From Promethearchaeum syntrophicum (GTDB taxonomy: Archaea > Asgardarchaeota > Lokiarchaeia > Sigyniarchaeales > Promethearchaeaceae), in contig NZ_CP042905.2 of the NCBI RefSeq assembly GCF_008000775.2, positions 2,160,001-2,192,000 on the forward strand: a DNA stretch of 32,000 nucleotides. The letters run 5' to 3'. A program made the translations under genes and the position numbers. The notes beneath the pieces were generated by a model. That model was not told the DNA's origin. It worked only from the letters and a program-made list of their open reading frames with translations, and did no database searches. Shown in pieces: positions 9,770 to 29,013 of the stretch (position 1 is its first letter; each line of letters opens with the position of its first letter).

Positions 9770-9978
9770 TTTGTTCACCGAAATTGTAAATAATTAATCC
9801 AATTTTTATTAAATGTATTAAATGTAAAAAAACCTAATAATATTTATATATGTAATTTTGGAAATTTTTCCATTTTTTTTTATCCAAATCTCCTTTGGGT
9901 AGTAAAATTGAATTTATACTAAGTAATTCATAAATTTAGAATTTGAAATTACAGAAATAACTATGTCGGAAAAACAAA

Positions 9979-10272
9979 ATGCCATTATATTATGTATATA
10001 TCCTAAAATGTGAGAACATTAAGAATGGAAATGTAAGTCTCTATACGGGATCAACTCAAGATTTAATGAAACGATTTGAACAACATCGAAAAGGTGTTGG
10101 TGGAGCAAAGTATACGAGAGGAAAAAAACTTGAATTGGTTTATTTTGAGACCCATTTAACAAGAAGTGACGTGATGAAGCGGGAATATGAAATAAAAAGC
10201 TACACTTCTTCAAAAAAATGGGAAATTGTAGATGAATTTCAAAAAAAAATGGAGGATTCGAAATCTAAATGA
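9979..10272 (+). CDS. GIY-YIG nuclease-domain protein (UPF0213/Slx1-like small stand-alone form)
   Basis: YYVYILKC...LYTGSTQDLMKRFEQHRKG...REYEIK carries the GIY..YIG, R..H and E elements of the GIY-YIG fold. Confidence 0.85.
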   Translation: MPLYYVYILKCENIKNGNVSLYTGSTQDLMKRFEQHRKGVGGAKYTRGKKLELVYFETHLTRSDVMKREYEIKSYTSSKKWEIVDEFQKKMEDSKSK

Positions 10273-15629: not shown

Positions 15630-17027
15630 ATGCTAAATACTATGAAGAGAAAGTTAATCGATCTTATCGAACCATTTAAAATTAAAGTGATTGAACCCGT
15701 TAGATTAGTTTCAGAAGAAAGAAGAAAACAAGCTATTAAAGAAGCGGGATATAACACATTTTTACTATTATCTGAAGATGTTTTTATTGATCTCTTGACT
15801 GATTCGGGTACTTCTGCAATGTCCGACAACCAATGGGCTGGAATGATGCTCGGTGATGAGGCTTACGCTGGGTCTAAAAACTTTTATCATCTTGAGAAAG
15901 CTATTCAAGATGTATTAGGATATAAATATGTTACTCCAACCCACCAAGGGCGAGGAGCTGAACATTTGATGTCTCAAGCTTTAATTTCAGAAGGGCAAAT
16001 CGTTCCAAGAAATATGTATTTTACAACCTCAAAATTACATGTTAATATTGCAGGAGGAGTAATGCCAGATGTAATTATTGATGAAGCGCATGATCCTGAA
16101 AACGAATTTGAGTTTAAAGGAAATGTTGATTTATTAAAATTACAAAAGGTTATTGATGAAAATGGACCAGAAAAGATTGCTTATGTGAACGTTGAGATGA
16201 ATGTTAACATGGCTGGTGGTCAACCAGTCTCAATGGCTAATTTAAGAGCAGTAAAGAAATTATGTGATCAATATAAAATTAAAGTCATTTTTGACGCAAC
16301 ACGATCCAGTGAGAATGCATATTTTATAAAAACTCGGGAAAAAGAATATGCAGATGTTCCAATTATAGATATATTGAATGAAATGATGAGTTATTCTGAT
16401 GGATGTATTTATAGTTCAAAGAAAGATTGCTTAGTTAATATTGGTGGTTTTCTCGCGACTCATGATAAAGAGATATTTGAAAAAACTCGTAGTATGGTTG
16501 TAGTTTATGAGGGGCTTCATACATATGGTGGTATGGCTGGTAGAGATATGGAAGCAGTTGCACGAGGATTACGAGAAAGCACACAGGTATCGTATTTAAA
16601 ATACAGAACTAACCAAGTTAAATTATTAGGTGATTTACTCATTGAAGGAGGGGTTCCAATTGTTCGACCCCCAGGTGGTCATGCGATATTTCTTAATGCT
16701 TTGAAGTTTCTCCCTCATCTTACACGTGAACAGTGGCCTGCTCAAACATTATCTGCTGCAATATACGAAGCATCTGGAGTTAGAAGCATGGAACGAGGTG
16801 CAATTAGCAAAGGTCGGGATAAAGATGGAAACAATATATTCCCAAATTTGGAATTAGTTAGACTTACAATCCCAAGAAGGGTATATACTAACACTCATAT
16901 AGAATATGCCGCAGAATGTATAATAGATCTTTACAAAAGAAGACACGAAATTCCTGGATTGAAAATGGTGTTCGAACCAGAATATCTCAGATTCTTCCAA
17001 GCTACTTTTGAACAATTACCTTTATAA
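15630..17027 (+). CDS. tpl: beta-eliminating lyase, tyrosine phenol-lyase-like (TPL/tryptophanase family, PLP-dependent)
   Basis: DLLTDSGTSAMSDNQWAGMMLGDEAYAGSKNFYHLE, PTHQGRGAE, the PLP-lysine segment SSKKDCLVNIGGFL, and GVRSMERG...LTIPRRVYT. From memory these segments are closer to Citrobacter TPL than to E. coli TnaA. An alternative start exists at 15642. Confidence 0.88.
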   Translation: MLNTMKRKLIDLIEPFKIKVIEPVRLVSEERRKQAIKEAGYNTFLLLSEDVFIDLLTDSGTSAMSDNQWAGMMLGDEAYAGSKNFYHLEKAIQDVLGYKYVTPTHQGRGAEHLMSQALISEGQIVPRNMYFTTSKLHVNIAGGVMPDVIIDEAHDPENEFEFKGNVDLLKLQKVIDENGPEKIAYVNVEMNVNMAGGQPVSMANLRAVKKLCDQYKIKVIFDATRSSENAYFIKTREKEYADVPIIDILNEMMSYSDGCIYSSKKDCLVNIGGFLATHDKEIFEKTRSMVVVYEGLHTYGGMAGRDMEAVARGLRESTQVSYLKYRTNQVKLLGDLLIEGGVPIVRPPGGHAIFLNALKFLPHLTREQWPAQTLSAAIYEASGVRSMERGAISKGRDKDGNNIFPNLELVRLTIPRRVYTNTHIEYAAECIIDLYKRRHEIPGLKMVFEPEYLRFFQATFEQLPL

Positions 17028-17031
17028 AATC

Positions 17032-17043
17032 TTTTTTTTTTTT
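17032..17043 (+). terminator. oligo-T (T12) terminator after the lyase gene
   Basis: T12 run beginning 5 nt after the TAA at 17025..17027. Confidence 0.55.
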
Positions 17044-17195
17044 ATCTCTTACGATATCATTAAAGTGGGTTTTTCATCCCCGTTTCTTAAAATTTATAGG
17101 CAATTCAGTTAATATTGTCCTCAAGGAAAGGTGTTTTTTACATACTATTCATAACTTGAGTTTTAATTATATAAAAAAGAAACCAGTTGAAAATT

Positions 17196-17816
17196 ATGAA
17201 CATTGATAAATTTAATATATTAAGCGTAGGTGTAGGAGGACAAGGGGTAATCCGAGTAACTCAAATACTCGCTTCTGCTGCCCTACTAGACGATTATCAT
17301 GTGAGGACTGCTGAAACGCATGGTATGGCGCAACGAGGAGGTTCAGTTTCAGGTTATTTACGATTTGGTGAACATGTTGATGGTCCTTTAATTCCTGCGG
17401 GATTAGCAGATATTATAATTGCATTAGAACCTCTTGAAGCAGTTCGGAATATGAAATATGTAGGGAAAAAATCAATAATTTTACTTAACGATAAGCAAAT
17501 TTTACCACTTTCAATTTATCAATCAAAAAAGATTGTTTATCCAAAATTTGATGAGATACTAGCGAATTTAAAGAAGATAACCACTAATGTTTTTTTCATA
17601 AAAGCCACAGAATTAGCAGAAAAGGCAGGGAATGCTAAAACGTCAAATGTAATTATGTTAGGGGTAATCTTTGGAACAGGAATTTTACCTCTTTCAAAAG
17701 AAAATCTTGAAAAATCTATTTTAAAATATGTTCCTTCAAAAGCTATTGAAGTCAATAAAATAGCATTCAATATCGGAATAGAAGAAGGTCAAAAAATGAG
17801 GAGTGAATTAAATTGA
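17196..17816 (+). CDS. iorB: indolepyruvate:ferredoxin oxidoreductase subunit beta
   Basis: ILSVGVGGQGVIRVTQIL...ETHGMAQRGGSVSGYLRFG is the typical IorB/2-oxoacid:Fd oxidoreductase gamma-type domain. The ORF-track start at 17187 is a TTG, so the ATG at 17196 is preferred. Confidence 0.88.
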   Translation: MNIDKFNILSVGVGGQGVIRVTQILASAALLDDYHVRTAETHGMAQRGGSVSGYLRFGEHVDGPLIPAGLADIIIALEPLEAVRNMKYVGKKSIILLNDKQILPLSIYQSKKIVYPKFDEILANLKKITTNVFFIKATELAEKAGNAKTSNVIMLGVIFGTGILPLSKENLEKSILKYVPSKAIEVNKIAFNIGIEEGQKMRSELN

Positions 17817-19720
17817 GTGAAATTCCAGTAATAGCCCAGGATAATCCTGGAAAAAAAATAATTATGCTAGGTAATGAGGCGATTGCCAGAGGAATATTAG
17901 AAGCTGGAGTAGTCGTTGCGGCAGCTTATCCCGGAACCCCATCTTCTGAAATTATGCCAAGTTTAGCTAAATGCGTTCCTTCTCATCCAGAATTACGAAT
18001 GGAATGGAGTGTGAATGAAAAAGTAGCTTTTGAAATTGCTCATGCGGGATCAATGTCAAATGTGCGATCAATTGCTATAATGAAACATGTTGGGCTTAAT
18101 GTTGCATCCGATTCATTCATGACTGCTTGTTATCATGGTGTTCGTGGAGGACTAGTGGTGGTCTCAGCAGATGATCCAAGCCAATTTTCAAGTCAAAATG
18201 AACAAGACAATCGATATTTTGGTCTTCATGCCATTGTTCCTGTGTTTGAACCTTCAAATTCTCAAGAAGCGAAGGATATGCTCAAATATGCATTCCAATT
18301 CTCCGAAGAAAATAATACTCTTGTACTTTTTAGAACTACAACACGATTAAATCATGGTAGAGCTGATGTTGAATTTGGTGACATTTTAAAATTAAATCGG
18401 ACACCCGAATTTGATTGGGATCGCCAAAGATGGACATGTGTTCCTTCATCCACCAGACCTCAAAGAACCGAATTACTTCTTAGAATGAAGAAAATGGCTG
18501 AAGGAGCTGATGATTTTCCGTTTAATAAATTGACAATTAGTGATGAAAAAATTAATGGAAAACGCTATGGTTTCATTGCTACGGGAATTGCTCATGCTCA
18601 TATGATTGACTCACTAAATATTCATGGTATTAAAGATAAAGTCTCTATCTTAAAACTTGGATTGGTCAATCCTTTACCTCAGAAATTAATTAAAAAATTG
18701 ATGAATTCAGTTGATGAATTGTTAGTTGTTGAAGAATTGGAGCCAATTTTTGAAGAACAATGTAAAGCTTTCGCATATGATTGGAATTTAGGAGCTAAAG
18801 TTAGAATTCATGGAAAAGATTTCTTACCGCAGCAAGGTGAATTTAAACCTGAAACTTTGATTACACAGATTGCTAAATTCGTTGGATTAGACTATACTCC
18901 TCCCGAATCGGCAGCTTTAGATATATCAGTGCCTCCTAGATTACCACAAATGTGCCCTGCTTGTTCTCATCGTAGTATTTATTGGATAATGAAACAATAT
19001 TCAAAGAAACATAAAATGAAATTCATAAATAACAACGATATTGGATGTTATTCCTTAGGTCTTTATAAACCACTCGAAATGGTTGATACTATGTTATGCA
19101 TGGGCGCATCCATTGGTATGGCAAATGGGTTTGCCAAAATAATGCCAGATAATATATTAATTACGGCATTTCTAGGGGATTCCACATTCTTCCATTCAGG
19201 TGTAGCGCCTCTAATTAATGCAGTTTACAATAGAAACGATATGCTTATCATTATTTCTGATAATAGCTTTACAAGTATGACTGGTGGACAAGATAATCCT
19301 TCTAATGGAAAAACACTTACCAAAGAACCAGGAACAAAAATTCTTATTGAAGATGTTGTGAAAGGATGCGGTGTTCCCGAAGAAAATATTTGGGTGCATG
19401 AAGCTTATGATATGGAAGGATTGAAGGAAAAATTTGAGCAAGCGGCAAACGCTAAGGGCGTTCGGGTATTTATTCCTCGACATATGTGTTCTCTTCAAGA
19501 AATGCGCATTGTGAAGAAAAATAAAATTAAGCTTCCAGTCGTTAAAGTGAATCCTGATGTTTGCATAGGATGTCAAACCTGTGTTCGGCAATTTGGGTGC
19601 CCGGCAATTAATTTTGATTATAAAACTCTTAAATCTTCTATTGATCAAGAACAATGTCGAGGATGCAAAACATGTTTATATATTTGCCCCTCAAACGCTT
19701 TTTATGTTGTTGAAGAGTAG
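17813..19720 (+). CDS. iorA: indolepyruvate:ferredoxin oxidoreductase subunit alpha
   Basis: LGNEAIARGILEAGV N-terminus, TPP-binding GDSTFFHSG, and two C-terminal 4Fe-4S motifs (CIGCQTCVRQFGCP, CRGCKTCLYICP). The TTG start overlaps the iorB stop by 4 nt (TTGA). The next in-frame ATG (17864) would truncate the conserved N-terminus. Confidence 0.88.
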   Translation: MSEIPVIAQDNPGKKIIMLGNEAIARGILEAGVVVAAAYPGTPSSEIMPSLAKCVPSHPELRMEWSVNEKVAFEIAHAGSMSNVRSIAIMKHVGLNVASDSFMTACYHGVRGGLVVVSADDPSQFSSQNEQDNRYFGLHAIVPVFEPSNSQEAKDMLKYAFQFSEENNTLVLFRTTTRLNHGRADVEFGDILKLNRTPEFDWDRQRWTCVPSSTRPQRTELLLRMKKMAEGADDFPFNKLTISDEKINGKRYGFIATGIAHAHMIDSLNIHGIKDKVSILKLGLVNPLPQKLIKKLMNSVDELLVVEELEPIFEEQCKAFAYDWNLGAKVRIHGKDFLPQQGEFKPETLITQIAKFVGLDYTPPESAALDISVPPRLPQMCPACSHRSIYWIMKQYSKKHKMKFINNNDIGCYSLGLYKPLEMVDTMLCMGASIGMANGFAKIMPDNILITAFLGDSTFFHSGVAPLINAVYNRNDMLIIISDNSFTSMTGGQDNPSNGKTLTKEPGTKILIEDVVKGCGVPEENIWVHEAYDMEGLKEKFEQAANAKGVRVFIPRHMCSLQEMRIVKKNKIKLPVVKVNPDVCIGCQTCVRQFGCPAINFDYKTLKSSIDQEQCRGCKTCLYICPSNAFYVVEE

Positions 19721-19755: not shown

Positions 19756-19908
19756 CAATTTTTAATTATTCTAATTGTAATCCTGCTCTTTTAGGAAGAT
19801 CTTATTCTTAGAAATTTAGACTGACTGTTAAAAAATAATTCAAAATTTTATATAGAATAACAAGGAGATGTACTACAATATGTATATTTTCAAAAAAAGG
19901 TGACAAAA

Positions 19909-22551
19909 ATGGAAATTAAACAGAATCAAAACCCTACAATTATAAAAATAATAATTGCAGCAGTAATATCGATAGGTATGATTACAGCTTTTTCTATCCC
20001 GTTTGGAATGATTCCACCTCTTGGTAACTTATTGTTCCCGGGAGATGGGATATGGGATGTACCGACTGAAGTATCGGAATATGAAGTTGTGAAGGACTCT
20101 GCACTCTCTCATGACGTAGAAGTATTTCGAGATGAATGGGGAATTCCTCATATTTATGGTTATGGTGAAGAAGACCTAATGTTCGCGCTCGGATATGTAC
20201 AAGCACAAGATAGGATGATTCAAATGGACCTTGTACGGAGATTGGCACGAGGGCGTCTATCCGAAATTGTAGGTCCTGATGCACTTGACACCGATAAATT
20301 CAATATTCTTAAATTAGAAGAATATTGGGCTAATAAATCTGTTGAAAATTTACAAGCAAGCGAAGATCCACTATATAAATCAATTTATCAAATGCTTTTA
20401 CGTTATGCTGATGGAATAAATAAGTATATTGAAACTAATCAAAATAATAAGCCATTTGAATATCAATTTTTAGATGTGGAAATTGCTCCATGGGAAATTG
20501 TTGATACATTAGTTTACGCAAAATACATGTCGGAATATTTTACATGGAGTTACAAAGATATGCAAAGATATGAAAACATGATGATTTTAGGAAGTGATAA
20601 TTATACTGAACTATATGGTTTTCCTGCTCCATATCAAATTCCCGTTACCCCAAATTATGGAGAATATGACGATATTTCTATACCTTCCAGTGAATTCAAT
20701 CCGCCTAGTTCATCTAACACAGATGAAATCAAAATGCCATCTGATAATTCAGAATTTGTCGAACCCCTACCTATGAATTTTATTTCATCCTTTTTAGATG
20801 GTTTACAAGGATTTCCCCAAGAAATACAACGAATGGAACAAGAATACATTATTGGATCAAACAATTGGGTCATTTCTGGAAATAAAACTTCCTCTGGTAA
20901 ACCTTTACTTAGCACTGACATGCATTTAGGGTTGACATTACCGGGAATGTGGCATGAAGCACACCTTGTTGACATAACCCCTGGTGCGGATCTAAATTTA
21001 TATGCTGTATTTGTTCCCGGAGTCCCTCTTCCTATTGCAGGTCATACCGATTATGTGGGGTGGGGAGAGTCGATTGCCGCCTTTGATTTAATCGATTGGT
21101 ATTATTATAATGGCATTAATGATACGCATTATGAATATAAAGGTGAAGCAAAAGCTTATGATATCATGGTAGAGTCCATCCCGATAAAAGGACAAGAACC
21201 TGAAGAATATATAATAAAATCCACCGTGCATGGTCCTGTTTTTACAGATTTAGTACCAATGTCAGAGGACTTTTCGGAAAATGTTATTGCTTGTAAATGG
21301 ACTAGTTACAATATAACTTTAGATTTTTTGGCTCTATACGGTTTTATGCATGCCAAAAATGTTTATGAATTCGATGACGCGATAAAATTCATGGATCTTC
21401 TCCCTCTTAATATAGCTTTTGGAGATGTTGAAGGAAATATCGGAATCCGTCCAAATGCTAAAGTACCAATTAGAAATGATACAGATATCCCCTCTTGGCA
21501 TCCTGGAGGTGGAGATATGCCTTATAATGGTTCGAAAGGAGAAGGTGAATGGATAGATTACTTAGATTTTGAGGATCGTCCTTATTGTATCAACCCCGAG
21601 CAAGGATTCTTATCATCAGCAAACCAATATATTGCAGGACCTGATTATCCAAATGTTGAAGTTATTAATGATGGAGGTGCTGTCGGATATCGCGCTCGTC
21701 GGATAAACAATTTACTTGCAAAGGCCACCGAATTTACAGTAGAAGACATGAAAACCATGGTACTTGATATTTATAGTGTACGTGCAGGTAATTTCACCCC
21801 ATATTTGATAGATGCGTTGGATACATTAATATCTAAAAGTGATATTCAAAAAGCTGCTTACAATGAATTACAAAATTGGGATTATTATATGGATAAAGAT
21901 TTAGTTGCACCCTCTCTCTATCATGTCTGGATTGAAGCATATTTAGAATTAACTTTTCAAGATGAACAAACCAATATGGGTAGTTTTAGTAGACCTTCTT
22001 ATGCAGTATTAGAGTATTTAACAAAGAATAATTCCGATTCCAAATGGTTTGACAACATTTCTACTCCCGAAATTGAAAACCGGGATGATATAATATTGGA
22101 TACTTTCAATATTGTTCTTGAAGGGTTAGAGGAATATTATGGAACGAATAATGTTTCTGCATGGAAATGGGGAGAAGTTCATCAAATACGGGTTGACCAT
22201 TTAATGAGTCTCCCTGGATTAGGTTTTGGACCCTATCCGATCTCAGGTGAAGCATATACGATAAATCCAAGTTACGGATCCAATTTTAATAACGGAGTAA
22301 TTAGTACTAGTTATTCCCGCGCTGGTGCTTCAGAACGTATTATTGTCGATTTTAGTAATATGAATAATAGCGTTTCGATAATTCCCTCGGGAGAAAGGGG
22401 TATTTCTAGTTCAGTTCATTATACGGATCAATTGGAAATGTGGTTAAGAGGAGAATTTCACCCACAATATTTCGATGCAAAGGATCCGGAAACTATCCAG
22501 AATTGGGCGAATATCGAATCTATTATATTATTTAAGAAGGAGGGAGATTAA
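19909..22551 (+). CDS. penicillin/acyl-homoserine-lactone acylase family Ntn-hydrolase (peptidase S45), N-terminally membrane-anchored
   Basis: RDEWGIPHIYG, FALGYVQAQDRMIQMDLVRR, and the self-processing/nucleophile region IGSNNWVISGNKTSSGKPLLSTDMHL. N-terminal hydrophobic helix IIKIIIAAVISIGMITAF. The ATG at 19909 is preceded by GGTGA-N5; the track start at 19900 is the GTG inside that SD. Confidence 0.85.
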   Translation: MEIKQNQNPTIIKIIIAAVISIGMITAFSIPFGMIPPLGNLLFPGDGIWDVPTEVSEYEVVKDSALSHDVEVFRDEWGIPHIYGYGEEDLMFALGYVQAQDRMIQMDLVRRLARGRLSEIVGPDALDTDKFNILKLEEYWANKSVENLQASEDPLYKSIYQMLLRYADGINKYIETNQNNKPFEYQFLDVEIAPWEIVDTLVYAKYMSEYFTWSYKDMQRYENMMILGSDNYTELYGFPAPYQIPVTPNYGEYDDISIPSSEFNPPSSSNTDEIKMPSDNSEFVEPLPMNFISSFLDGLQGFPQEIQRMEQEYIIGSNNWVISGNKTSSGKPLLSTDMHLGLTLPGMWHEAHLVDITPGADLNLYAVFVPGVPLPIAGHTDYVGWGESIAAFDLIDWYYYNGINDTHYEYKGEAKAYDIMVESIPIKGQEPEEYIIKSTVHGPVFTDLVPMSEDFSENVIACKWTSYNITLDFLALYGFMHAKNVYEFDDAIKFMDLLPLNIAFGDVEGNIGIRPNAKVPIRNDTDIPSWHPGGGDMPYNGSKGEGEWIDYLDFEDRPYCINPEQGFLSSANQYIAGPDYPNVEVINDGGAVGYRARRINNLLAKATEFTVEDMKTMVLDIYSVRAGNFTPYLIDALDTLISKSDIQKAAYNELQNWDYYMDKDLVAPSLYHVWIEAYLELTFQDEQTNMGSFSRPSYAVLEYLTKNNSDSKWFDNISTPEIENRDDIILDTFNIVLEGLEEYYGTNNVSAWKWGEVHQIRVDHLMSLPGLGFGPYPISGEAYTINPSYGSNFNNGVISTSYSRAGASERIIVDFSNMNNSVSIIPSGERGISSSVHYTDQLEMWLRGEFHPQYFDAKDPETIQNWANIESIILFKKEGD

Positions 22552-22552
22552 C

Positions 22553-22975
22553 ATGAGCGAAATGAATCCATCAGTTGACTTTTTTAATAAATATTCTCCC
22601 TATTTTGCCACTTTATTGACTTTTATATTATCAATGCTATTTACATTAGTCCCTTTTTGGCCTTTAACATTTGTTGCTGCTATTTTTGGAGGATTCTTAT
22701 GTAAAAATATGAACTGTGGGGCATTAAGTGCGATGATTGGAATCATAATATCATGGGGAATTTATATTATTATTGAAGTTATAGGAAATAGGACCAACAT
22801 CTTATTCGATCAATTAGGAATTTTAATAACTGGCTCATCAGGATTCGGATTTTGGCTAATTTTTATTGTTCTAATTGTTGGGGCTATTATAGGATTATTA
22901 GGCGGAACAATCGGCTCAGGAATCAGAATATTAATAGAACCAAAATTTCTTTCAAAAAAAAATCATCAAAGATAA
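22553..22975 (+). CDS. small integral membrane protein (about 4 TM helices), hypothetical
   Basis: The ATG at 22553 lies 1 nt after the acylase stop and is preceded by GGAGGGAG. The 140 aa are dominated by hydrophobic, glycine-rich segments. The upstream extension of the track ORF (22475) overlaps the acylase and is unlikely. Confidence 0.6.
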   Translation: MSEMNPSVDFFNKYSPYFATLLTFILSMLFTLVPFWPLTFVAAIFGGFLCKNMNCGALSAMIGIIISWGIYIIIEVIGNRTNILFDQLGILITGSSGFGFWLIFIVLIVGAIIGLLGGTIGSGIRILIEPKFLSKKNHQR

Positions 22976-23042: not shown

Positions 23043-23052
23043 AAAAAAAAAA
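23043..23052 (-). terminator. oligo-T (T10 on the minus strand) immediately after the caspase-like gene stop
   Basis: A10 on the plus strand directly abuts the TAA (23053..23055, minus strand). Confidence 0.45.
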
Positions 23053-25215
23053 TTATATAAGCCTATTCCCGCATTCTGTACAAAATAATGACTTTCCATC
23101 TGTAATTGGTGCACCACAATTGGTACAAAACTTGAATTTTGCTTTTTGATTTGAAAAATTATCGAATTCATCAAAAATGAAAGAATTGGAGGAACTTGAT
23201 GTTTCTGGTGGGCTATTATCACTCCCAAAAGTTCCTATTGAAGGATTTGTGCCATATATTTGAAAACTACTTGGGGAGTCTCGAATTGGAACTCTCGGCT
23301 TTGGTTTATAGAATTTTTTCCTCCAGATTATAGCAGAAATTGATAAAAATCCAATAACTCCAAGAGTAATAGAAATTCCCCGCATCATAGGATTGCTTAT
23401 CGATTTCAAAGGATTTGTATTTCTGTCGATTTCCTCTTTATCGGTATATTGATCATCATCTGTATCCATATCTAATGGGTCCGTTCCATAAGAAAATTCT
23501 TCAGAATTGATAAGTCCATCACCATCAGGATCGTCAGTTGCATCATCAACTAGCGGATTTGTTCCTTTAAAATATTCCCAACCGTCAGGCATTCCGTCAT
23601 AATCCGTATCTAAAGATAAAGAATCCGTCCCAATTTGAAGCTCAATATCATCGGATAACTCATCATTATCCCAATCTGAATCCCAGAGATTAAAACCAAT
23701 TTCAAATTCATAAGCATCAGAAAGTGAATCACCGTCAAAATCACCACTATAAGATAATCCTAAAGGAGTTAATTCTATGGATTCATTATCAATTTCTGAA
23801 AAACCATTATTAGTTTGAATTGCTTTAAAAGTAATACCCGAAATATCATGACCCGTTAAACTTGAAGCAAATAATTTTTGTTGCCAACCAGCGCTGTTTT
23901 GAATGTTTTCCTCTATTTCGGATCTCACTATTGTTTGTTCTGTAAAATCATAATATACTAATATTAATTTTCCTACTCCAAGACCGCTAAGAGCAAATTC
24001 AATTTGTACTTGGTCATTTCCAGATGGAATAACCGAATTTATCTTCCCATTCGGTTCAAGTATTAATTCACCATCAATTCCATCATATTCCTCAGGATGA
24101 TGAGTAAATCCTAAATAAGTTGACCGATCGACTGTAGAATTATAAATCGCTTCAAAATTTTCTTCATATGATATCACTCCATCATTATTAATATCTGAAT
24201 TATTATCCCACGAATTCAAAAAACTATAAGAAAATACTCCATTTTCACGATACGGATCTTCCAATGAGTATTCTGAACTATTACTTGCTGATATTACATA
24301 TCTATCCGTTTGAGCAAAATCTCGAGCAACGCCTCCACTATGGCAAGAATCCAACAGTGTAACGACCTGACCAGGAACTTCATTAAAATAAGAATTTAGC
24401 GTAGATCCATTTAACCCTGAGTCCAATCCATCATGTGTATTTATGCAATATGAATCTTCCCAGTAACCTACTTCAACTAAATCGATTTCAAATCCCCACT
24501 CGGTTATTGAATAATCAGTGTACAAATTAACATAGATGTCATCACAAGGTATCCAACCAGACCATAAATCGGTATAATCATTATCATATAAAACATAAGC
24601 AGGCCATCTGTCATCATTATCTCCAATATAAATTTCATCAATTTCATCTTCAAGTTCAATTTTTGTAAAGTGAACCCTCATTAGTTCTGCCCCTGGATGA
24701 GAATAATGCCAATAATCATCCATATTATTAGAATATGGATGATTGCTTGCTACATTCCAGCTATATTGAATTGAAGATATTTCTTGAGATCCATGCCCTG
24801 AATAAGAAAAGAATAACACATCATTTTCATTCATCACATCGGAAAAATTGCTAATAGCATAAGAAATATCAGGGATAGTCACCTCAGAATCTATTAATTT
24901 AACGATATTTGAATCAGGTATATGGTAGTTATCTAGGATAAAGTTATATATCTCTTCAGCATCATCATCACAATAGCTTAAATCATTAATAGACCCGGGA
25001 TAATCACTCACTCCACAAATAATTGCATAACCTTCTCTTGGATCTTCGATTGATGAAGATTTTACCTCACCTTCAAATAAATTGTTTCCCTTAAGTTTCT
25101 CACTAATTGTTAAATTACTTTGAATAAATAAAAAGGGAGAGATAAAATTTAATGCTAATATTGAAATAAGAACTATTTCTCTTACAGAAACTTTAGTTTT
25201 ACTCATTTTTATCAT
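23053..25215 (-). CDS. membrane-anchored caspase-fold (peptidase C14-like) protein with CUB-like insertion, beta-sandwich region, thrombospondin-type-3-like Ca-binding repeats, TM helix and C-terminal zinc ribbon
   Basis: N-terminal signal/anchor. YAIICGVSDYPG...DDDAEE...VLFFSYSGHG (catalytic His 141) and VVTLLDSCHSGG (catalytic Cys 291). Five DxDxDGxxDxxE-like repeats (aa ~490-600). TM helix ISITLGVIGFLSISAIIW. CTNC-x12-CTEC zinc ribbon at the C-terminus. An alternative start exists at 25206. Confidence 0.8.
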   Translation of the reverse strand: MIKMSKTKVSVREIVLISILALNFISPFLFIQSNLTISEKLKGNNLFEGEVKSSSIEDPREGYAIICGVSDYPGSINDLSYCDDDAEEIYNFILDNYHIPDSNIVKLIDSEVTIPDISYAISNFSDVMNENDVLFFSYSGHGSQEISSIQYSWNVASNHPYSNNMDDYWHYSHPGAELMRVHFTKIELEDEIDEIYIGDNDDRWPAYVLYDNDYTDLWSGWIPCDDIYVNLYTDYSITEWGFEIDLVEVGYWEDSYCINTHDGLDSGLNGSTLNSYFNEVPGQVVTLLDSCHSGGVARDFAQTDRYVISASNSSEYSLEDPYRENGVFSYSFLNSWDNNSDINNDGVISYEENFEAIYNSTVDRSTYLGFTHHPEEYDGIDGELILEPNGKINSVIPSGNDQVQIEFALSGLGVGKLILVYYDFTEQTIVRSEIEENIQNSAGWQQKLFASSLTGHDISGITFKAIQTNNGFSEIDNESIELTPLGLSYSGDFDGDSLSDAYEFEIGFNLWDSDWDNDELSDDIELQIGTDSLSLDTDYDGMPDGWEYFKGTNPLVDDATDDPDGDGLINSEEFSYGTDPLDMDTDDDQYTDKEEIDRNTNPLKSISNPMMRGISITLGVIGFLSISAIIWRKKFYKPKPRVPIRDSPSSFQIYGTNPSIGTFGSDNSPPETSSSSNSFIFDEFDNFSNQKAKFKFCTNCGAPITDGKSLFCTECGNRLI

Positions 25216-25544
25216 TTCTTTATGTTTTAAATTATAATTTTTCTTGAATATATGATTATAAAATTATATAAAAGAAATATTTTTCACACAATTAAGTTTA
25301 TTGATATTTTCCAAATAGGAAATTAAGTATATATAATGTAAGTAGAATTTTTAGAGATTTTTTGTAAGACGAAGTTAATAAGGAATAATTTTTTGGATAT
25401 TTTGAAAAAGATGGAATATCAATATGAAGTAAATAAAAATATCTTTGAGATTCTTGAAAAAATCATTGTTTTCAAATAGAAGCAATCATACTTTTTTCGT
25501 TCTACATAAAAAAATTAATATTTTTTCTTAATTCTAATTAAATT

Positions 25545-26921
25545 ATGAAACGATTTTTTTATCCTCAAACGATTGCTGTTATAGGTGCCACCGACGACCC
25601 GAAAAAGTTTGGAAATGCAGTTACAAGTAATTTACTCTCAAATAAGCAATTAAAAGCTCAAGTTTTTCCAATTTCCAGAAATAATCCAACAGTGAGTGGT
25701 TTAAAAGCATATAAATCTGTCACTGATGTTCCTGTAGAATTAGATCTTGCGATTATTTTAGTACCTGCACAAGTAGTACCAACTATTGTTGATCAGTGTA
25801 TTGAAAAAAAAGTAGCGCGAATTATTATAGTGACGGCTGGATTTGGAGAAATTAATAACGAAGGTAAAAAAATCGAACAACAGATGTTAGAAAAATCAAA
25901 AAGTGCGGGAACAAGAATAATTGGGCCGAATTGTGTTGGAATTCAAAATATTGACATTGAAATGAATGCTAGTTTTATTCAATCACCAATTCCAGGTAAT
26001 ATCAGCATGGTTTCTCAATCTGGATCATTTGGGTGTGCAGTTATTGATGGAATGAAATGGCAAAATTGTGGTCTATCCAAGTTTGCAAATATTGGGAATG
26101 CAATTGATGTTTCGTTTGATGATATTATTAATTATTTCAAAGAGGATGAGAATTCTAAAGTAATTGCGGTTTATCTTGAATCAGTAAAAAATGGGAAAGC
26201 ATTTTTTAACAGTTTAAAAGAAATATCTCCTAAAAAACCCGTAGTTGTGTTAAAAGGGGGACGTACAAGTGCTGGTATGGCTGCTGCTGGAAGCCATACA
26301 GGATCCATTGCATCTAATTATACAATATTAAAAACTGCTGTAGAACAAGCCGGAGCAACTATGTGTACAACAATTGAAGAATATATTATTGCTCTAAAGA
26401 CTTTTTCGTATTTAAGTTTGCCAAGAGGAAATAAAATCGGTGTATTGACAAACAGTGGCGGAACAGGGGTGTTATTTAGTGATAAGGCTGAAGAATTGGA
26501 TTTAAAATTATCAGAGTTCTCAGATCATTTAAAGGATAAATTAAAACCTCACCTTTTCAATTTGGTTCAAATTGTAAATCCCTTGGATATGATTGCGGGA
26601 GCTCGTGAGAAAGAATATTATGAAATCACTAAAGCTATGTTAGAAGAAGATTCTGGGATTGATATTGTAGTCGCTTGTGGTGTTTATCCTCCCTTTTTAG
26701 GAATGAAATTTGAGAATAATTATAGGGGTATAATCCGTGCGTGGAATGATACCGGTCGCAAAAAACCAATTATTCCTTTGTTAGTTTTTGGTAATGGTTA
26801 TGATGCTATTATTGAATTCGCGCGCCAAGAAAATGTTCCCTATTTTTCAAGTCCTTCTGAAGCAGCCTATGCAGTGAAAATATTAATTCAAAGGATGGAA
26901 TACATGAGTAAAAATAAGTAG
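25545..26921 (+). CDS. acdA: ADP-forming acetyl/acyl-CoA synthetase, alpha subunit (CoA-binding + succinyl-CoA-synthetase-like domains)
   Basis: PQTIAVIGATDDPKKFG CoA-binding start, RIIGPNCVG, SQSGSFG, and the phosphohistidine segment AAAGSHTGSIAS. No adjacent ATP-grasp beta subunit is present in this window. Confidence 0.85.
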   Translation: MKRFFYPQTIAVIGATDDPKKFGNAVTSNLLSNKQLKAQVFPISRNNPTVSGLKAYKSVTDVPVELDLAIILVPAQVVPTIVDQCIEKKVARIIIVTAGFGEINNEGKKIEQQMLEKSKSAGTRIIGPNCVGIQNIDIEMNASFIQSPIPGNISMVSQSGSFGCAVIDGMKWQNCGLSKFANIGNAIDVSFDDIINYFKEDENSKVIAVYLESVKNGKAFFNSLKEISPKKPVVVLKGGRTSAGMAAAGSHTGSIASNYTILKTAVEQAGATMCTTIEEYIIALKTFSYLSLPRGNKIGVLTNSGGTGVLFSDKAEELDLKLSEFSDHLKDKLKPHLFNLVQIVNPLDMIAGAREKEYYEITKAMLEEDSGIDIVVACGVYPPFLGMKFENNYRGIIRAWNDTGRKKPIIPLLVFGNGYDAIIEFARQENVPYFSSPSEAAYAVKILIQRMEYMSKNK

Positions 26922-26977: not shown

Positions 26978-27196
26978 TTAGTAAAACTCAATTGCTAAAG
27001 CCATATCTCCTTTGGAGATCTTCTTTCGTTTTGAGTGTTTAGCGAAATTTAACGCCATTGCTGTGAGTTTCTTGCTACGATTTTCTAAATAATTCAATAA
27101 TGCTTCAACAGCATCTCGGCTGACAATTTGTGCACCCGATTTTTTCATTAAGGCCCGTAGTGGGGACCATGCAAATGCTCTTCTTTTCTTTGCCAT
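26978..27196 (-). CDS. archaeal histone (HMf-type histone fold) with short basic N-terminal extension
   Basis: 72 aa. SPLRALMKKSGAQIVSRDAVEALLNYLENRSKKLTAMALNFAKHSKRKKISKGDMALAIEF is collinear with the HMfB helices alpha1-L1-alpha2-L2-alpha3. It is preceded by MAKKRRAFAW. Confidence 0.9.
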   Translation of the reverse strand: MAKKRRAFAWSPLRALMKKSGAQIVSRDAVEALLNYLENRSKKLTAMALNFAKHSKRKKISKGDMALAIEFY

Positions 27197-27846: not shown

Positions 27847-29013
27847 ATGATGGAAGAAAATCTTGAAAATTGGATAATTTTATTAGATTGCACAAAATCC
27901 ATGAATAGAGAAGATTTTCCTCCAAATAGATTCCAAACTGCATTAAGTGGAATCAAAATCTTTATTGAAGAAAAATCTAAGGCATTAAAGAAAGTTAGAA
28001 TATCCATAATCACATTTAATAAAAAAATTTCAGTTGTTTCTGAGTTGACTGATGATGTTGATTCAACCATTGAATTAATTTCAAATAAAAAATTTAAAAA
28101 AATGAATCTCTCATCAGGTTCAATAAATATGTTGGATAATGCATTAAATGAAGCATTAGAGATTCTTGGTCAACAAATTCAAAATATTTCTGGATTTTAT
28201 AATTGTATATTGTTAATTTCTGATACGGAAGATCTTAATATTTCGGAAAAAACCCAAAAAAAAATCAAAGGATTACAAATTTCGATAAATATTATAACAT
28301 TTTCACTTGAGAAAAATAACGCTAATATGTATTTTCCATTGAAAGCTCAACATTTTACTACTAAACAAGATCTTTTGAATGGAATGAAGGAACTTGCCTT
28401 ATTAAAAAAAAAAGAAAAAAATAATGCTCAACATTTTTCAGAAATAATGTTAGAACATGGAAAAAAAACTCGCGATTTCATGGAAGAAATTGCTTTAAAA
28501 TTGAGATATCCAACACTTGATGAATTAATCAAATTTAATAAGAAATCAAGAAAAATCAATTGCCAAATATGTTTCAGCAAAATTTCCCCCATTAAAAAAT
28601 ATTCACTTTATAAAACTGGAAGATTATGCCCCCATTGTGGGACGCCAATGCACCTTCATTGTGCGGGAACATGGGCTCTTAAATCATCAGAACACAAAGG
28701 TTTATTCAGATGCCCATATTGTTATACTCTTCTAAAAATTCCGGGAGCAATTTTAAATGGTCTTAATAAAAAAAGCAATAAAAAAGAAGGATCAGAATCT
28801 AAAAAACAATTAGTTAAAATGATTGTTATTGGACCTGAAAAACTTAAACAGAAATATTCTGATTGCTTGTATTGTTTTAAACCAATAAAAAATGTTTCAT
28901 TTCAGAAAACTTTTCAATGCAGTAATTGTAAAGCATATTTTCATAAAAAATGCCTGGAAGAGATGTATAAATTAGATAAAAAATGTTTAAATTGCAATGG
29001 AAATATTGTTTAG
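27847..29013 (+). CDS. von Willebrand factor A (vWA) domain protein with two C-terminal C4HC3 RING/PHD-type zinc fingers
   Basis: N-terminal WIILLDCTKSMNREDFPPNRFQ (a MIDAS-like DxTxS; it resembles the Rpn10 vWA segment IDNSEWMRNGDY.PSRFQ) and LLISDTED. Finger 1 spans aa 239-292: C-x2-C-x18-C-x2-C-x4-H-x2-C-x16-C-x2-C. Finger 2 spans aa 340-383: C-x2-C-x14-C-x2-C-x4-H-x2-C-x10-C-x2-C. Confidence 0.75.
   Translation: MMEENLENWIILLDCTKSMNREDFPPNRFQTALSGIKIFIEEKSKALKKVRISIITFNKKISVVSELTDDVDSTIELISNKKFKKMNLSSGSINMLDNALNEALEILGQQIQNISGFYNCILLISDTEDLNISEKTQKKIKGLQISINIITFSLEKNNANMYFPLKAQHFTTKQDLLNGMKELALLKKKEKNNAQHFSEIMLEHGKKTRDFMEEIALKLRYPTLDELIKFNKKSRKINCQICFSKISPIKKYSLYKTGRLCPHCGTPMHLHCAGTWALKSSEHKGLFRCPYCYTLLKIPGAILNGLNKKSNKKEGSESKKQLVKMIVIGPEKLKQKYSDCLYCFKPIKNVSFQKTFQCSNCKAYFHKKCLEEMYKLDKKCLNCNGNIV

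What the first reader, a model, noticed from the sequence alone, without database searches (positions are those of the whole stretch)
23053..25215. Extracellular, membrane-tethered caspase-fold protease with Ca-binding repeats and a cytoplasmic zinc ribbon: possible transmembrane proteolytic signalling protein
Seen in sequence: the 720-aa protein reads, in order, as follows. An N-terminal signal/anchor helix. A caspase/C14-type domain with the SYSGHG His and DSCHSGG Cys. An EF-hand-like DINNDGVISYEE. A ~100-aa beta-rich segment. Five tandem thrombospondin-type-3-like acidic repeats (DFDGDSLSDAYE, DSDWDNDELSDDIE, DTDYDGMPDGWE, DDPDGDGLINSEE, DMDTDDDQYTDKEE). A single TM helix. A Ser/Pro-rich linker. 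A C-terminal CTNC-x12-CTEC zinc ribbon predicted to face the cytoplasm. An outside-facing caspase coupled through one TM helix to an inside-facing zinc ribbon is not a described archaeal system. It sits convergent to a secreted Ntn-acylase and a small membrane protein.
Basis: partly seen in the sequence, partly recalled or inferred. Interest (0 to 1): 0.75.

Follow-up and report, generated by a model that had tools for sequence, protein, structure and literature searches.

The report
Asgard surface caspase with nested CUB
This gene of the Asgard archaeon Promethearchaeum syntrophicum encodes a membrane-anchored, outward-facing caspase-type protease with a calcium-binding CUB domain inserted inside its catalytic domain; it belongs to an undescribed family found only in Asgard archaea, but nothing shows that it signals across the membrane.

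Summary
ORF 23053-25215 (-) encodes the 720-aa protein in the domain order described, and it is 100% identical to an NCBI 'caspase family protein' of Promethearchaeum syntrophicum. His141 and Cys291 are invariant in 64 homologues. In 58 of 59 homologues the positive-inside rule puts the protease outside. 51 of 54 long tails end in CxxC...CxxC.

His and Cys lie 150 residues apart because a CUB domain of about 115 aa is nested between them. Its three invariant acidic residues match the Ca2+ and lysine-binding site of complement C1s CUB1. CUB-less bacterial and Asgard relatives have the normal spacing of about 50 residues.

The S1-pocket residues match metacaspases, so cleavage after Arg or Lys is expected.

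The family is Asgard-only, has several paralogues per genome and has no conserved gene neighbours.

Best reading: a Ca2+-dependent, Arg/Lys-directed cell-surface protease on a thrombospondin type-3 (TSP3) repeat stalk, with a cytoplasmic docking tail. It works most like the gingipains. The signalling idea is untested and has little support: there is no output domain and no partner gene, and some members lack the tail.

Verdict: a new variant of a known kind, of moderate interest.

The parts
23053..25215 (-). Whole gene: 720 codons plus the stop. It is the 'caspase family protein' of Promethearchaeum syntrophicum.
   Evidence: ORF list. 100% identity to the NCBI protein on a 4.32-Mb contig.
25117..25179 (-). 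N-terminal hydrophobic segment, aa 13-33. It is either a signal peptide or an N-in anchor, and is preceded by MIKMSKTKVSVRE (net +3).
   Evidence: Hydropathy up to 2.21. Family mean net charge is +2.9 before and -1.1 after the segment. Cleavage could not be predicted with these tools.
24790..25050 (-). First half of the caspase (C14) domain, aa 56-142. It holds the YCDDDA motif (Cys82, Asp85) and SYSGHG (Ser139, His141).
   Evidence: Pfam PF00656 match to aa 62-144. phmmer matches to AtMC4 and Yca1. His141 64/64, Asp85 64/64, Ser139 63/64.
24442..24789 (-). CUB domain nested in the caspase fold directly after the catalytic His, aa ~143-258. It lacks cysteines in most family members (the window copy has Cys224 and Cys257, not conserved). 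Its Ca2+ and lysine-binding site is Tyr161, Glu189, Asp193, Asp234 and Ser236.
   Evidence: The insert profile hits cubilin at 6.4e-10, and also enteropeptidase, PCPE-1, MASP-2, Kremen, neuropilin and C1s. 21 of 26 family inserts hit Pfam CUB. Foldseek hit to Kremen. The invariant Glu, Asp and Asp align with C1s Glu45, Asp53 and Asp98 (PMC4222235). CUB-less relatives show a gap here.
24061..24441 (-). Second half of the caspase domain, aa 259-385, with DSCHSGG (Asp289, Cys291) and the conserved HPEEYDG end.
   Evidence: Pfam C14 and C13 matches to aa 283-366. Cys291 and Asp289 64/64. AF2 pLDDT above 90, and Foldseek matches to metacaspases at 1e-9.
24160..24195 (-). EF-hand-like 12-residue loop D341-I-N-N-D-G-V-I-S-Y-E-E352, lying between two helices of the caspase domain.
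   Evidence: Positions 1, 3, 5, 6, 9 and 12 are at least 90% conserved. AF2 places helix 327-338, then the loop, then helix 350-367. Pfam EF-hand_5 scores only 15.2 bits, below the cut-off. The loop is also present in bacterial relatives.
23770..24060 (-). Seven-strand Ig/FN3-like beta-sandwich spacer, aa 386-482.
   Evidence: AF2 on the whole protein and on the domain alone (pLDDT 79). Foldseek finds only generic beta-sandwiches, best E 3e-3. The full model aligns over more columns to MALT1 caspase-Ig3 than to metacaspases.
23401..23742 (-). Five tandem thrombospondin type-3 (TSP3) acidic Ca2+-binding repeats, aa 492-605, forming the stalk.
   Evidence: Pfam TSP3_bac at 41.9 bits against a cut-off of 25. 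The D-x-D-x-D starts are listed. The Asp and Glu columns are at least 90% conserved.
23323..23379 (-). Transmembrane helix, aa 613-631.
   Evidence: Hydropathy 2.01. AF2 helix 609-635. Positive-inside flank.
23140..23322 (-). Basic, Ser/Pro-rich, disordered cytoplasmic linker, aa 632-692.
   Evidence: pLDDT 30-35. Composition, and a pI of 9.0 for the whole tail aa 632-720.
23056..23139 (-). C-terminal zinc ribbon, aa 693-720: C697-x2-C700-x11-C712-x2-C715, ending 5 residues before the stop.
   Evidence: Pfam Zn_Ribbon_1 at 5.5e-7 and 29.6 bits on the tail alone. Orthologues P0002-P0004 keep all four Cys. 51 of 54 long tails carry such a ribbon, a median of 4 residues from the C-terminus.
25264..25273 (-). 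TATA-box-like TTTTATATAA about 50 nt upstream of the ATG, in the 329-bp divergent intergenic region. This is a candidate promoter only.
   Evidence: Read directly from the sequence. The region is about 26% G+C, so such strings are common. Weak evidence.
23043..23052 (-). Run of ten T immediately after the TAA stop. It resembles an archaeal terminator and implies a monocistronic unit.
   Evidence: Read directly from the sequence. The next gene is convergent.

Best explanation
The gene encodes a cell-surface cysteine protease of the metacaspase/orthocaspase type (MEROPS family C14).

Shown by sequence, modelling and family comparison:
- The protein enters the membrane through an N-terminal signal or anchor.
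- It displays an ectodomain of about 575 aa that is very acidic (pI 4.05).
- It is held by one C-terminal TM helix, with an 89-aa basic tail in the cytoplasm.
- The ectodomain is a caspase-fold head with an invariant His141/Cys291 dyad.
- Its S1 pocket residues (Cys82, Asp85, Ser139, Asp289) match those of metacaspases, which cleave after basic residues.
- A cysteine-free CUB domain replaces the acidic loop after the catalytic His. In metacaspases that loop carries the allosteric Ca2+ site.
- An EF-hand-like loop, an Ig-like sandwich and five TSP3 repeats follow.

Inferred:
- The enzyme needs Ca2+ and cleaves after Arg or Lys.
- The CUB Ca2+ site (Glu189, Asp193, Asp234) acts as an exosite next to the catalytic cleft. 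It would grip a basic side chain of a substrate or partner, as C1s CUB1 grips a collagen lysine.
- The sandwich and the TSP3 stalk hold the head away from the membrane.
- The ectodomain's very low Lys+Arg content (3.7%) protects it from cutting itself.

Most likely use: proteolysis of proteins outside the cell. I favour peptide supply for an archaeon that lives by fermenting amino acids and peptides, in the manner of gingipains. Processing of the cell's own surface proteins is a close second.

The zinc-ribbon tail is most likely a docking or positioning element for a cytoplasmic or membrane partner, not a signal output.
For: Identity and fold:
- Pfam C14 at 2.2e-12.
- phmmer matches to AtMC4 and Yca1.
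- AF2 pLDDT 82, and Foldseek matches to metacaspases, MALT1 and GSU0716 at about 1e-9.

Activity:
- His141, Cys291, Asp85 and Asp289 are kept in 64/64 homologues, and Ser139 in 63/64.
- These are the positions of TbMCA2 Cys92, Asp95, Ser156 and Asp211 (PMC4357240).

CUB domain. Its invariant residues align to C1s Glu45, Asp53, Asp98 and Ser100, which bind Ca2+ and the ligand lysine (PMC4222235).

The insertion site lies in the His-to-Cys segment that in TbMCA2 holds Ca2+ ligands Asp173, Asp189 and Asp190. CUB-less relatives have an Asp-rich loop there.

Topology.

Lys+Arg content is 3.7% in the ectodomain, 11-16% in most of the other window ORFs (which are mostly cytosolic), and 6.6% in the secreted acylase. 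The family core averages 3.5%.

Lifestyle: MK-D1 catabolises amino acids and peptides (PMC7015854). The window also carries genes for a beta-eliminating lyase, indolepyruvate oxidoreductase and an ADP-forming acyl-CoA synthetase.

Analogue: RgpB is a clan CD protease that is Arg-specific, Ca2+-stabilised and followed by an Ig-like domain (PMC4357240).
Against: - No activity, substrate, localisation or Ca2+ binding has been measured.
- A feeding protease would not obviously need a conserved cytoplasmic tail. Yet 38 of 73 homologues carry an extra helical tail domain that is specific to this family.
- The link to amino-acid fermentation genes is not conserved beyond the closest relative.
- Caspase-family enzymes usually perform limited rather than bulk proteolysis.
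- Low Lys+Arg content could simply reflect an acidic surface protein.
Confidence: 0.6

Rival explanations
1. Transmembrane proteolytic signalling receptor. Binding of Ca2+, a ligand or a substrate at the CUB-caspase head, or self-cleavage, is passed through the single TM helix to the zinc-ribbon tail. The tail then binds or releases a cytoplasmic effector.
For: - The tail is conserved. 51 of 54 long tails end in a zinc ribbon a median of 4 residues from the C-terminus.
- 38 of 73 members carry a helical 'LGVPEP' domain. A profile search of 5.8 billion proteins found that domain only in fragments of this same family.
- One paralogue's tail is fused to a membrane protein that carries CxxC...CxxC motifs. 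Elsewhere that protein is encoded directly downstream of a family member.
Against: - No kinase, HTH, cyclase or other output domain is present.
- There are no conserved neighbours.
- Five members have tails of 15 aa or fewer and no ribbon.
- The window protein lacks the helical tail domain.
- Genomes carry several paralogues.
- Zinc-ribbon ends also occur on unrelated small membrane proteins.
Confidence: 0.12
2. Maturase or sheddase for the cell's own surface. The enzyme trims or releases other surface proteins, for example coat or protrusion proteins. The tail places it at particular membrane sites.
For: - Limited proteolysis is the norm for C14 enzymes.
- The protein is tethered at a fixed height above the membrane by the sandwich and TSP3 stalk.
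- The conserved tail suggests controlled placement.
- MK-D1 has an envelope layer with stalk-like structures and forms protrusions (PMC7015854).
Against: - No substrate gene is linked to it.
- Nothing distinguishes this reading from the feeding role in silico.
Confidence: 0.2
3. Mainly an adhesin or structural coat protein. The CUB, TSP3 and EF-hand modules mediate Ca2+-dependent binding to partner cells or to matrix, and the caspase fold serves chiefly as a scaffold.
For: - CUB and TSP3 are classic Ca2+-dependent interaction modules.
- The bacterial relatives are giant multi-domain surface proteins.
- MK-D1 grows in aggregates with syntrophic partners.
Against: - The catalytic His and Cys and the S1 residues are invariant across homologues at 31-75% identity. 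That argues for selection on catalysis.
Confidence: 0.08

Closest known systems
Metacaspases and orthocaspases (MEROPS C14B; TbMCA2, Yca1, AtMC4/9, bacterial GSU0716)
   Same: - Caspase-haemoglobinase fold and His/Cys dyad.
- Acidic S1 residues at the TbMCA2 Cys92, Asp95, Ser156 and Asp211 positions.
- Expected Arg/Lys specificity and Ca2+ dependence.
   Different: - Extracellular and membrane-anchored.
- A CUB domain replaces the acidic Ca2+ loop between His and Cys.
- No long p20-p10 linker and no LSD1-type or Pro-rich N-terminal prodomain.
- Followed by an Ig-like sandwich, a TSP3 stalk, a TM helix and a zinc-ribbon tail.
Unnamed caspase domains inside giant surface proteins of Verrucomicrobiota, Kiritimatiellia, Planctomycetes and Chloroflexi (loci L041-L064)
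   Same: - These are the closest non-Asgard relatives of the catalytic core, up to 43% identity in the best segment.
- They share the YCDDDA motif, the EF-hand-like loop and the QHPQEYDG end.
- They are extracellular.
   Different: - Normal His-to-Cys spacing of 53-59 aa, with an Asp-rich loop and no CUB.
- Different flanking domains.
- No TSP3, TM and zinc-ribbon tail.
Gingipains RgpB and Kgp (clan CD, family C25). Works like, not a member.
   Same: - Cell-surface, Arg/Lys-specific, Ca2+-stabilised clan CD cysteine protease.
- Followed by an Ig-like domain.
- Made by an anaerobe that ferments peptides (PMC4357240; the organism's physiology is from my own knowledge).
   Different: - A different family (C25, not C14).
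- Attached through a T9SS C-terminal domain and lipopolysaccharide rather than a TM helix.
- No CUB, no TSP3 and no cytoplasmic tail.
MALT1 paracaspase (caspase-Ig3)
   Same: - Arg-directed C14 domain followed directly by an Ig-like sandwich.
- The Foldseek alignments to MALT1 are the longest, at 484-522 columns.
   Different: - Cytosolic and activated by dimerisation.
- Flanked by death and Ig domains.
- The domain orientation differs (rmsd about 20 A).
Metazoan CUB-bearing extracellular proteases (C1r/C1s/MASPs, enteropeptidase, BMP-1/tolloid with PCPE). Works like.
   Same: - A Ca2+-binding CUB provides Ca2+-dependent capture of a basic residue of a partner next to a protease.
- The Glu/Asp/Asp/Ser/Tyr site is conserved.
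   Different: - Those are serine or metallo-proteases with CUBs arranged in tandem outside the catalytic domain and held by disulfides.
- Here one cysteine-free CUB is nested inside a cysteine-protease fold.
Prokaryotic cysteine-free CUB arrays (for example Methanosarcina 'PKD domain-containing protein' P0103 and Anaerolineae P0196)
   Same: - The same CUB subtype, with the ESPHPYxNNY...RVHF...E..YD...D.S...WGF signature.
- This is the likely source pool of the insert.
   Different: - Tandem arrays in non-protease surface proteins.
- Not nested in an enzyme.

Membership tests
Peptidase C14 (caspase/metacaspase/orthocaspase), Pfam PF00656 | Profile match above the curated cut-off | tested here: met
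   47.6 bits against a cut-off of 21.4. The match is split into aa 62-144 and a second part near Cys291.
Peptidase C14 | Catalytic His-Cys dyad in the GHG and D-x-C-x-S-G motifs | tested here: met
   His141 and Cys291 are present here and in 64/64 aligned homologues.
Peptidase C14 | Caspase-haemoglobinase alpha/beta fold | tested here: met
   AF2 pLDDT above 90 over the domain. Foldseek matches to AtMC9, AtMC4, Yca1, MALT1, GSU0716 and caspases 7 and 9, with E from 1e-9 to 1e-5.
Metacaspase/orthocaspase subgroup (C14B) | Acidic S1 pocket, equivalent to TbMCA2 Cys92, Asp95, Ser156 and Asp211, giving Arg/Lys specificity | tested here: met
   Cys82 (53/64), Asp85 (64/64), Ser139 (63/64) and Asp289 (64/64) sit at the same motif positions. 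The specificity itself was not measured.
Metacaspase/orthocaspase subgroup (C14B) | Allosteric Ca2+ site formed by Asp residues of the His-to-Cys loop (TbMCA2 Asp173, 189, 190, 220) | tested here: not met
   A CUB domain replaces the loop. CUB-less relatives keep an Asp-rich loop there. Ca2+ control is presumably taken over by the CUB site; this is inference.
Type I metacaspase | N-terminal Pro-rich or LSD1 zinc-finger prodomain | tested here: not met
   The N-terminus is a signal or anchor. The only zinc motif is C-terminal and lies beyond a TM helix. No zf-LSD1 hit was found.
Peptidase C14 | Peptidase activity | not testable with these tools
   Needs enzymology.
CUB domain (PF00431) | Profile match | tested here: met
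   The window insert alone gives no Pfam hit at E<=1. However, 21 of 26 homologous inserts do (best 6.3e-9). The family profile hits cubilin at 6.4e-10 and 32 further CUB-bearing PDB sequences (33 matches in all). The window insert is 25-67% identical to those inserts.
CUB domain | Beta-sandwich fold | tested here: met
   AF2 places strands at aa 142-258. Foldseek matches the Kremen CUB at 1.2e-5.
Ca2+-binding CUB subset | Glu/Asp/Asp Ca2+ triad plus Tyr and Ser (C1s Glu45, Asp53, Asp98, Tyr17, Ser100) | tested here: met
   Glu189, Asp193 and Asp234 are invariant and Tyr161 is at least 90% conserved. The profile alignment to C1s CUB1 pairs Glu189, Asp193, Asp234 and Ser236 with C1s Glu45, Asp53, Asp98 and Ser100. 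The pairing of Tyr161 with C1s Tyr17 and the role of Tyr17 are from memory and from matching the motifs by eye; neither nor one search shows them. Metal binding was not measured.
CUB domain | Two conserved disulfides of metazoan CUBs | tested here: not met
   The family has no conserved Cys in the insert. The same is true of the prokaryotic CUB arrays.
Bacterial TSP3 repeat (PF18884) | Profile match, with tandem D-x-D-x-D-G...D..E units | tested here: met
   41.9 bits against a cut-off of 25, in 4 stretches. Five units are visible by eye.
Zinc ribbon (PF13240) | Profile match and four Cys in two knuckles | tested here: met
   29.6 bits (cut-off 25) on the tail alone, but 23.2 bits in the full-length scan. 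All four Cys are kept in orthologues. Zinc binding was not measured.
EF-hand | Canonical 12-residue loop between two helices, and a profile match | tested here: inconclusive
   Loop positions 1, 3, 5, 6, 8 and 12 are canonical. Of these, 1, 3, 5, 6 and 12 (and also position 9) were shown to be at least 90% conserved; position 8 was not checked. AF2 flanks the loop with helices. Pfam EF-hand_5 gives only 15.2 bits against a cut-off of 25.9.
Transmembrane signalling or regulated-proteolysis receptor | A cytoplasmic output domain or a conserved partner gene | tested here: not met
   The tail holds only a disordered linker and a zinc ribbon. The neighbourhoods differ among loci L001-L004.

The most novel reading that the evidence does not exclude
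This is the founding example of an Asgard-wide class of receptor-like surface proteases built from modules best known from animal extracellular matrix: CUB, TSP3 and EF-hand. Engagement of Ca2+ or a ligand by the CUB-caspase head would be coupled through the TM helix to a family-specific cytoplasmic tail. That tail consists of a zinc ribbon and, in most members, the helical LGVPEP domain. It would recruit intracellular machinery such as the cytoskeleton, ESCRT or ubiquitin-like systems. The result would be a prokaryotic outside-in adhesion and proteolysis receptor in the closest archaeal relatives of eukaryotes.
Probability: 0.1. Interest if true: 0.85.

Novelty: new variant of a known kind. 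Interest (0 to 1): 0.55.

Why it matters
Very little is known about what Asgard archaea display on their surface, although their protrusions and partner contacts are central to models of how eukaryotes arose. This family has several notable properties:
- It is present in at least five Asgard lineages (Promethearchaeum/Lokiarchaeota, Sigyn-, Thor-, Hermod- and Hodarchaeota).
- It is often present in several copies per genome.
- It is absent from other organisms in the searches made.

It is therefore a strong candidate for a major surface enzyme of these cells.

For protease biology it is an unusual design. A Ca2+-binding CUB domain is nested inside a caspase fold, exactly where metacaspases carry their regulatory Ca2+ loop. 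This suggests a new way of coupling calcium and substrate capture to a clan CD active site.

If the enzyme feeds the cell, it would be an archaeal counterpart of the gingipains. If the conserved tail proves to communicate with the cytoplasm, the finding would be considerably more important.

Tried and rejected
- **Conserved gene neighbourhood.** I looked up contigs for P0002, P0008 and P0029. Only the closest relative shares synteny, and even there extra genes are inserted. No partner gene emerged.
- **Is the tail a generic module on other ectodomains?** A profile of 13 tails searched against 5.8 billion proteins returned only short fragments of the same family, plus two unrelated multi-zinc-ribbon membrane proteins at E of about 1e-6. 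The helical tail domain is therefore specific to the family. Simple zinc-ribbon ends do occur on other membrane proteins.
- **Pfam CUB on the window insert alone.** No hit. A family profile was needed.
- **Fold of the beta-sandwich.** Modelled separately, it gave only generic Ig/FN3-like matches with E above 1e-3.
- **The zinc ribbon as a RanBP2/NZF-type ubiquitin-binding finger or an LSD1 finger.** Most homologues (spacer x10) show C-x2-C-x3-N-x6-C-x2-C; the window protein does not (spacer x11, Ile in place of the Asn). Pfam Zn_ribbon_RanBP scored only E 0.19 in one homologue, and the Thr-Phe ubiquitin-binding dipeptide is absent. Rejected.
- **The LGVPEP helical tail domain as MIT- or TPR-like.** No Pfam match. 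Left open.
- **A eukaryote-like origin.** The closest non-Asgard cores are bacterial surface proteins, not eukaryotic metacaspases. No claim of a eukaryotic signature protein is made.
- **Pseudo-protease.** Rejected, because the dyad is invariant.
- **Literature.** Nine of the ten allowed full-text searches found no description of Asgard caspases or of a caspase with an inserted CUB.


Full report
**What is there**

The ORF at 23053-25215 on the minus strand is real and encodes 720 aa. It is 100% identical to the 717-aa NCBI 'caspase family protein' of Promethearchaeum syntrophicum, carried on a 4.32-Mb contig. The window therefore comes from the cultured Asgard archaeon MK-D1. The rest of the window agrees with that origin: it has about 30% G+C, an archaeal histone, two Ras-family GTPases, CDC48 and KTI12.

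The gene stands alone. It is divergent from an ADP-forming acyl-CoA synthetase gene across a 329-bp AT-rich spacer, which contains a TATA-like TTTTATATAA about 50 nt upstream of the ATG. It is convergent with a small membrane ORF, and a run of ten T follows its stop codon directly.

**Check of the observation**

- A hydrophobic segment at aa 13-33 follows a +3 N-terminus.
- SYSGHG carries His141 and DSCHSGG carries Cys291. Pfam Peptidase_C14 scores 2.2e-12.
- The loop D341-INNDGVISYE-E352 is present.
- A beta-rich segment spans aa 386-482.
- Five TSP3 repeats span aa 492-605, with TSP3_bac at 8.9e-11.
- A TM helix at aa 613-631 is followed by WRKKFYKPKPRVPIR.
- A disordered Ser/Pro-rich linker follows.
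- A zinc ribbon closes the protein.

One detail is wrong. The ribbon is C697-x2-C700-x11-C712-x2-C715, so the spacer is x11 and not x12. Scanned alone, the tail passes the Pfam Zn_Ribbon_1 cut-off, at 29.6 bits against 25.

The catalytic His and Cys are 150 residues apart, whereas the usual distance is about 50. The extra 115 residues or so (aa 143-258) form a CUB domain. The evidence is as follows.
- A profile of 26 homologous inserts hits cubilin at 6.4e-10. It also hits enteropeptidase, PCPE-1, MASP-2, Kremen, TSG-6, neuropilin and C1s.
- 21 of the 26 inserts hit Pfam CUB individually.
- The AF2 model (pLDDT 82) matches the Kremen CUB by Foldseek.
- Run against 1.84 billion representative proteins, the same profile finds 5108 proteins. 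They include metazoan cubilin-like proteins and many prokaryotic, cysteine-free tandem CUB arrays, for example in Methanosarcina and Anaerolineae.

CUB domains as such are therefore not new to archaea. The new feature is the nesting inside a caspase fold.

The invariant residues of the insert are Glu189, Asp193 and Asp234; Ser236 aligns with them, and Tyr161 is nearly invariant. In a profile alignment, Glu189, Asp193, Asp234 and Ser236 pair with Glu45, Asp53, Asp98 and Ser100 of C1s CUB1. The pairing of Tyr161 with C1s Tyr17 rests on my memory of the CUB literature and on matching the motifs by eye. The C1s residues Glu45, Asp53, Asp98 and Ser100 bind Ca2+ and clasp a lysine of the collagen-like ligand (PMC4222235).

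Bacterial relatives and a few Asgard paralogues lack the insert. They have 40-59 residues between His and Cys, and the bacterial ones have an Asp-rich loop there. In metacaspases the same segment carries three of the four Asp residues of the allosteric Ca2+ site (PMC4357240). A Ca2+-binding CUB has thus replaced the metacaspase Ca2+ loop.

**Is it an active, outward-facing enzyme?**

1. *Catalytic residues.* In an alignment of 64 full-length homologues (31-75% identity), His141, Cys291, Asp85 and Asp289 are invariant, and Ser139 is kept in 63 of 64. Cys82, Asp85, Ser139 and Asp289 occupy the motif positions of the TbMCA2 S1 residues Cys92, Asp95, Ser156 and Asp211. Cleavage after Arg or Lys is therefore expected. 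This is an inference.
2. *Topology.* 58 of 59 homologues with a C-terminal TM helix have more Lys/Arg in the 15 residues after it than before it (mean 5.0 against 1.07). The N-terminus averages +2.9 before the hydrophobic segment and -1.1 after it. The ectodomain has a pI of 4.05 and the tail a pI of 9.0. CUB and TSP3 are extracellular Ca2+ modules.
3. *Cys pairs.* 51 of 54 tails longer than 15 aa contain CxxC...CxxC, ending a median of 4 residues from the C-terminus.

The ectodomain is also strongly depleted in Lys+Arg. It has 3.7%, against 11-16% in most of the other window ORFs (mostly cytosolic) and 6.6% in the secreted acylase next door. The family core averages 3.5%. This fits self-protection of an Arg/Lys-directed protease, though an acidic surface protein would look similar.

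**The rest of the anatomy**

- The EF-hand-like loop has canonical residues at positions 1, 3, 5, 6, 8 and 12. Positions 1, 3, 5, 6, 9 and 12 are at least 90% conserved. AF2 places it between two helices. It is also present in the bacterial relatives. It does not reach the Pfam thresholds.
- The segment at aa 386-482 is a seven-strand Ig/FN3-like sandwich with no specific relative. Caspase followed by sandwich recalls MALT1 caspase-Ig3 and RgpB-IgSF.

**Family and distribution**

About 73 homologues carrying the caspase-CUB core were found, some of them truncated. All that carry a taxon name are from Asgard lineages: Promethearchaeota/Lokiarchaeota, Sigyn-, Thor- and Hermodarchaeota.

In one genome per species (GTDB), 35 Asgard loci were recovered, including a Hodarchaeota MAG. 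31 of the 35 have the CUB-length spacing. Several MAGs carry two or three copies.

The nearest non-Asgard cores sit inside giant surface proteins of Verrucomicrobiota, Kiritimatiellia, Planctomycetes and Chloroflexi. That points to a prokaryotic surface-protease lineage, not a eukaryote-like one.

Gene neighbourhoods are not conserved.

**The tail**

The window protein belongs to a short-tailed subgroup (P0001-P0004), with a linker and a single ribbon. 38 of the 73 homologues carry an additional conserved helical domain with an invariant G-V-P-E-P motif. Others have two or three ribbons, and five have almost no tail.

A profile of the long tails found nothing outside this family, so the head and the tail have evolved together.

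In one paralogue (P0050) the tail is replaced by a module homologous (E 2e-22) to a 255-aa membrane protein carrying CxxC...CxxC motifs. In another genome that protein is encoded immediately downstream of a family member. This suggests that the tail works with membrane or cytoplasmic partners. No output domain is recognisable.

**Interpretation**

The best-supported reading has these parts:
- The protein is a Ca2+-dependent, Arg/Lys-directed cell-surface protease on an Ig-plus-TSP3 stalk.
- The CUB Ca2+ site acts as an exosite for a basic residue of a substrate or partner.
- The tail serves as a docking element.

What the enzyme cuts is unknown. I favour extracellular proteins as a source of peptides, for three reasons. 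MK-D1 lives on amino acids and peptides (PMC7015854). The window carries aromatic amino-acid fermentation genes. Gingipains offer a close functional precedent. Processing of the cell's own surface proteins is nearly as likely.

The signalling reading is not excluded, and the conservation of the tail gives it some support. Against it, there is no output domain and no partner gene, and some members lack the tail. I put it at about 0.12.

**Novelty**

The protease family assignment is already in the NCBI annotation, and extracellular bacterial metacaspases have been noted before (PMC3501461). I found no description of the Asgard family, the nested CUB or the tail. I rate it a new variant of a known kind, with interest 0.55.

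Noticed in passing
window 27847-29013 (+): A 388-aa protein with an N-terminal vWA (Ssl1-like) domain, followed by several Cys-rich RING/C1-like zinc fingers. The same gene sits beside the histone and acyl-CoA synthetase genes in the related contig L001.
   Followed up: no
window 26978-27196 (-): A 72-aa archaeal histone-fold protein with a basic N-terminal extension (MAKKRRAFAW...).
   Followed up: no
window 6624-7151 and 7345-7899 (+): Two adjacent Ras/Roc-family small GTPases, a typical Asgard 'eukaryotic signature'. KTI12 (10269-11156) and CDC48 (11197-13509) lie nearby.
   Followed up: no
window 15630-19720 (+) and 25545-26921 (+): An amino-acid fermentation set flanks the protease gene: a beta-eliminating lyase, a two-subunit indolepyruvate/2-oxoacid:ferredoxin oxidoreductase, and an ADP-forming acyl-CoA synthetase alpha subunit. 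The linkage is kept only in the closest relative.
   Followed up: partly
window 19900-22551 (+): An 883-aa penicillin amidase (Ntn hydrolase) with an N-terminal hydrophobic segment. It is probably secreted. Its Lys+Arg content (6.6%) is low, but not as low as that of the protease ectodomain.
   Followed up: partly
window 22475-22975 (+): A small multi-TM protein with no Pfam match. The listed ORF overlaps the end of the amidase gene by 77 nt, so the true start is probably the internal Met at about 22553. A 146-aa gene with no Pfam hit sits in the same position in L001; its homology was not checked.
   Followed up: no
L003 9268-10035 (also L004 3343-4110), and P0050 aa 890-1036: A 255-aa membrane protein with CxxC...CxxC motifs, two TM helices and a C-terminal zinc ribbon is encoded directly after a family member, with start and stop adjacent. 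It is homologous (E 2e-22) to the tail of paralogue P0050, which makes this a gene-fusion link.
   Followed up: partly
P0023-P0070 tails (homologues, not the window): A conserved cytoplasmic helical domain of about 70 aa with an invariant G-V-P-E-P motif lies between the TM helix and the zinc ribbon in 38 of 73 homologues. It has no Pfam match and was found in no other protein family.
   Followed up: partly
P0092, P0102, P0103, P0109, P0196 (representative-library hits): Prokaryotic proteins made of 3 to 8 tandem cysteine-free CUB domains with the ESPHPYxNNY signature. Some also carry a PKD domain, and P0103 ends in what looks by eye like a dockerin-type segment. One is from Methanosarcina and one from Anaerolineae. 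This is a large prokaryotic CUB pool.
   Followed up: partly
L001 8921-11962: In the closest relative, a 1013-aa LVIVD-repeat surface protein with a C-terminal TM anchor is inserted between the protease gene and the small 146-aa gene. PNPOx and MarR genes are inserted upstream.
   Followed up: no
L035, L036, L037, L040, L057: Asgard paralogues of the same caspase core without the CUB insert (His-to-Cys 40-49 aa). L057 keeps the beta-sandwich and a C-terminal TM helix, and L035 ends in a zinc ribbon. These are useful for dating the insertion.
   Followed up: partly
window 9128-9778 (-) and 14565-15305 (-): ORFs of 216 and 246 aa with no Pfam match.
   Followed up: no
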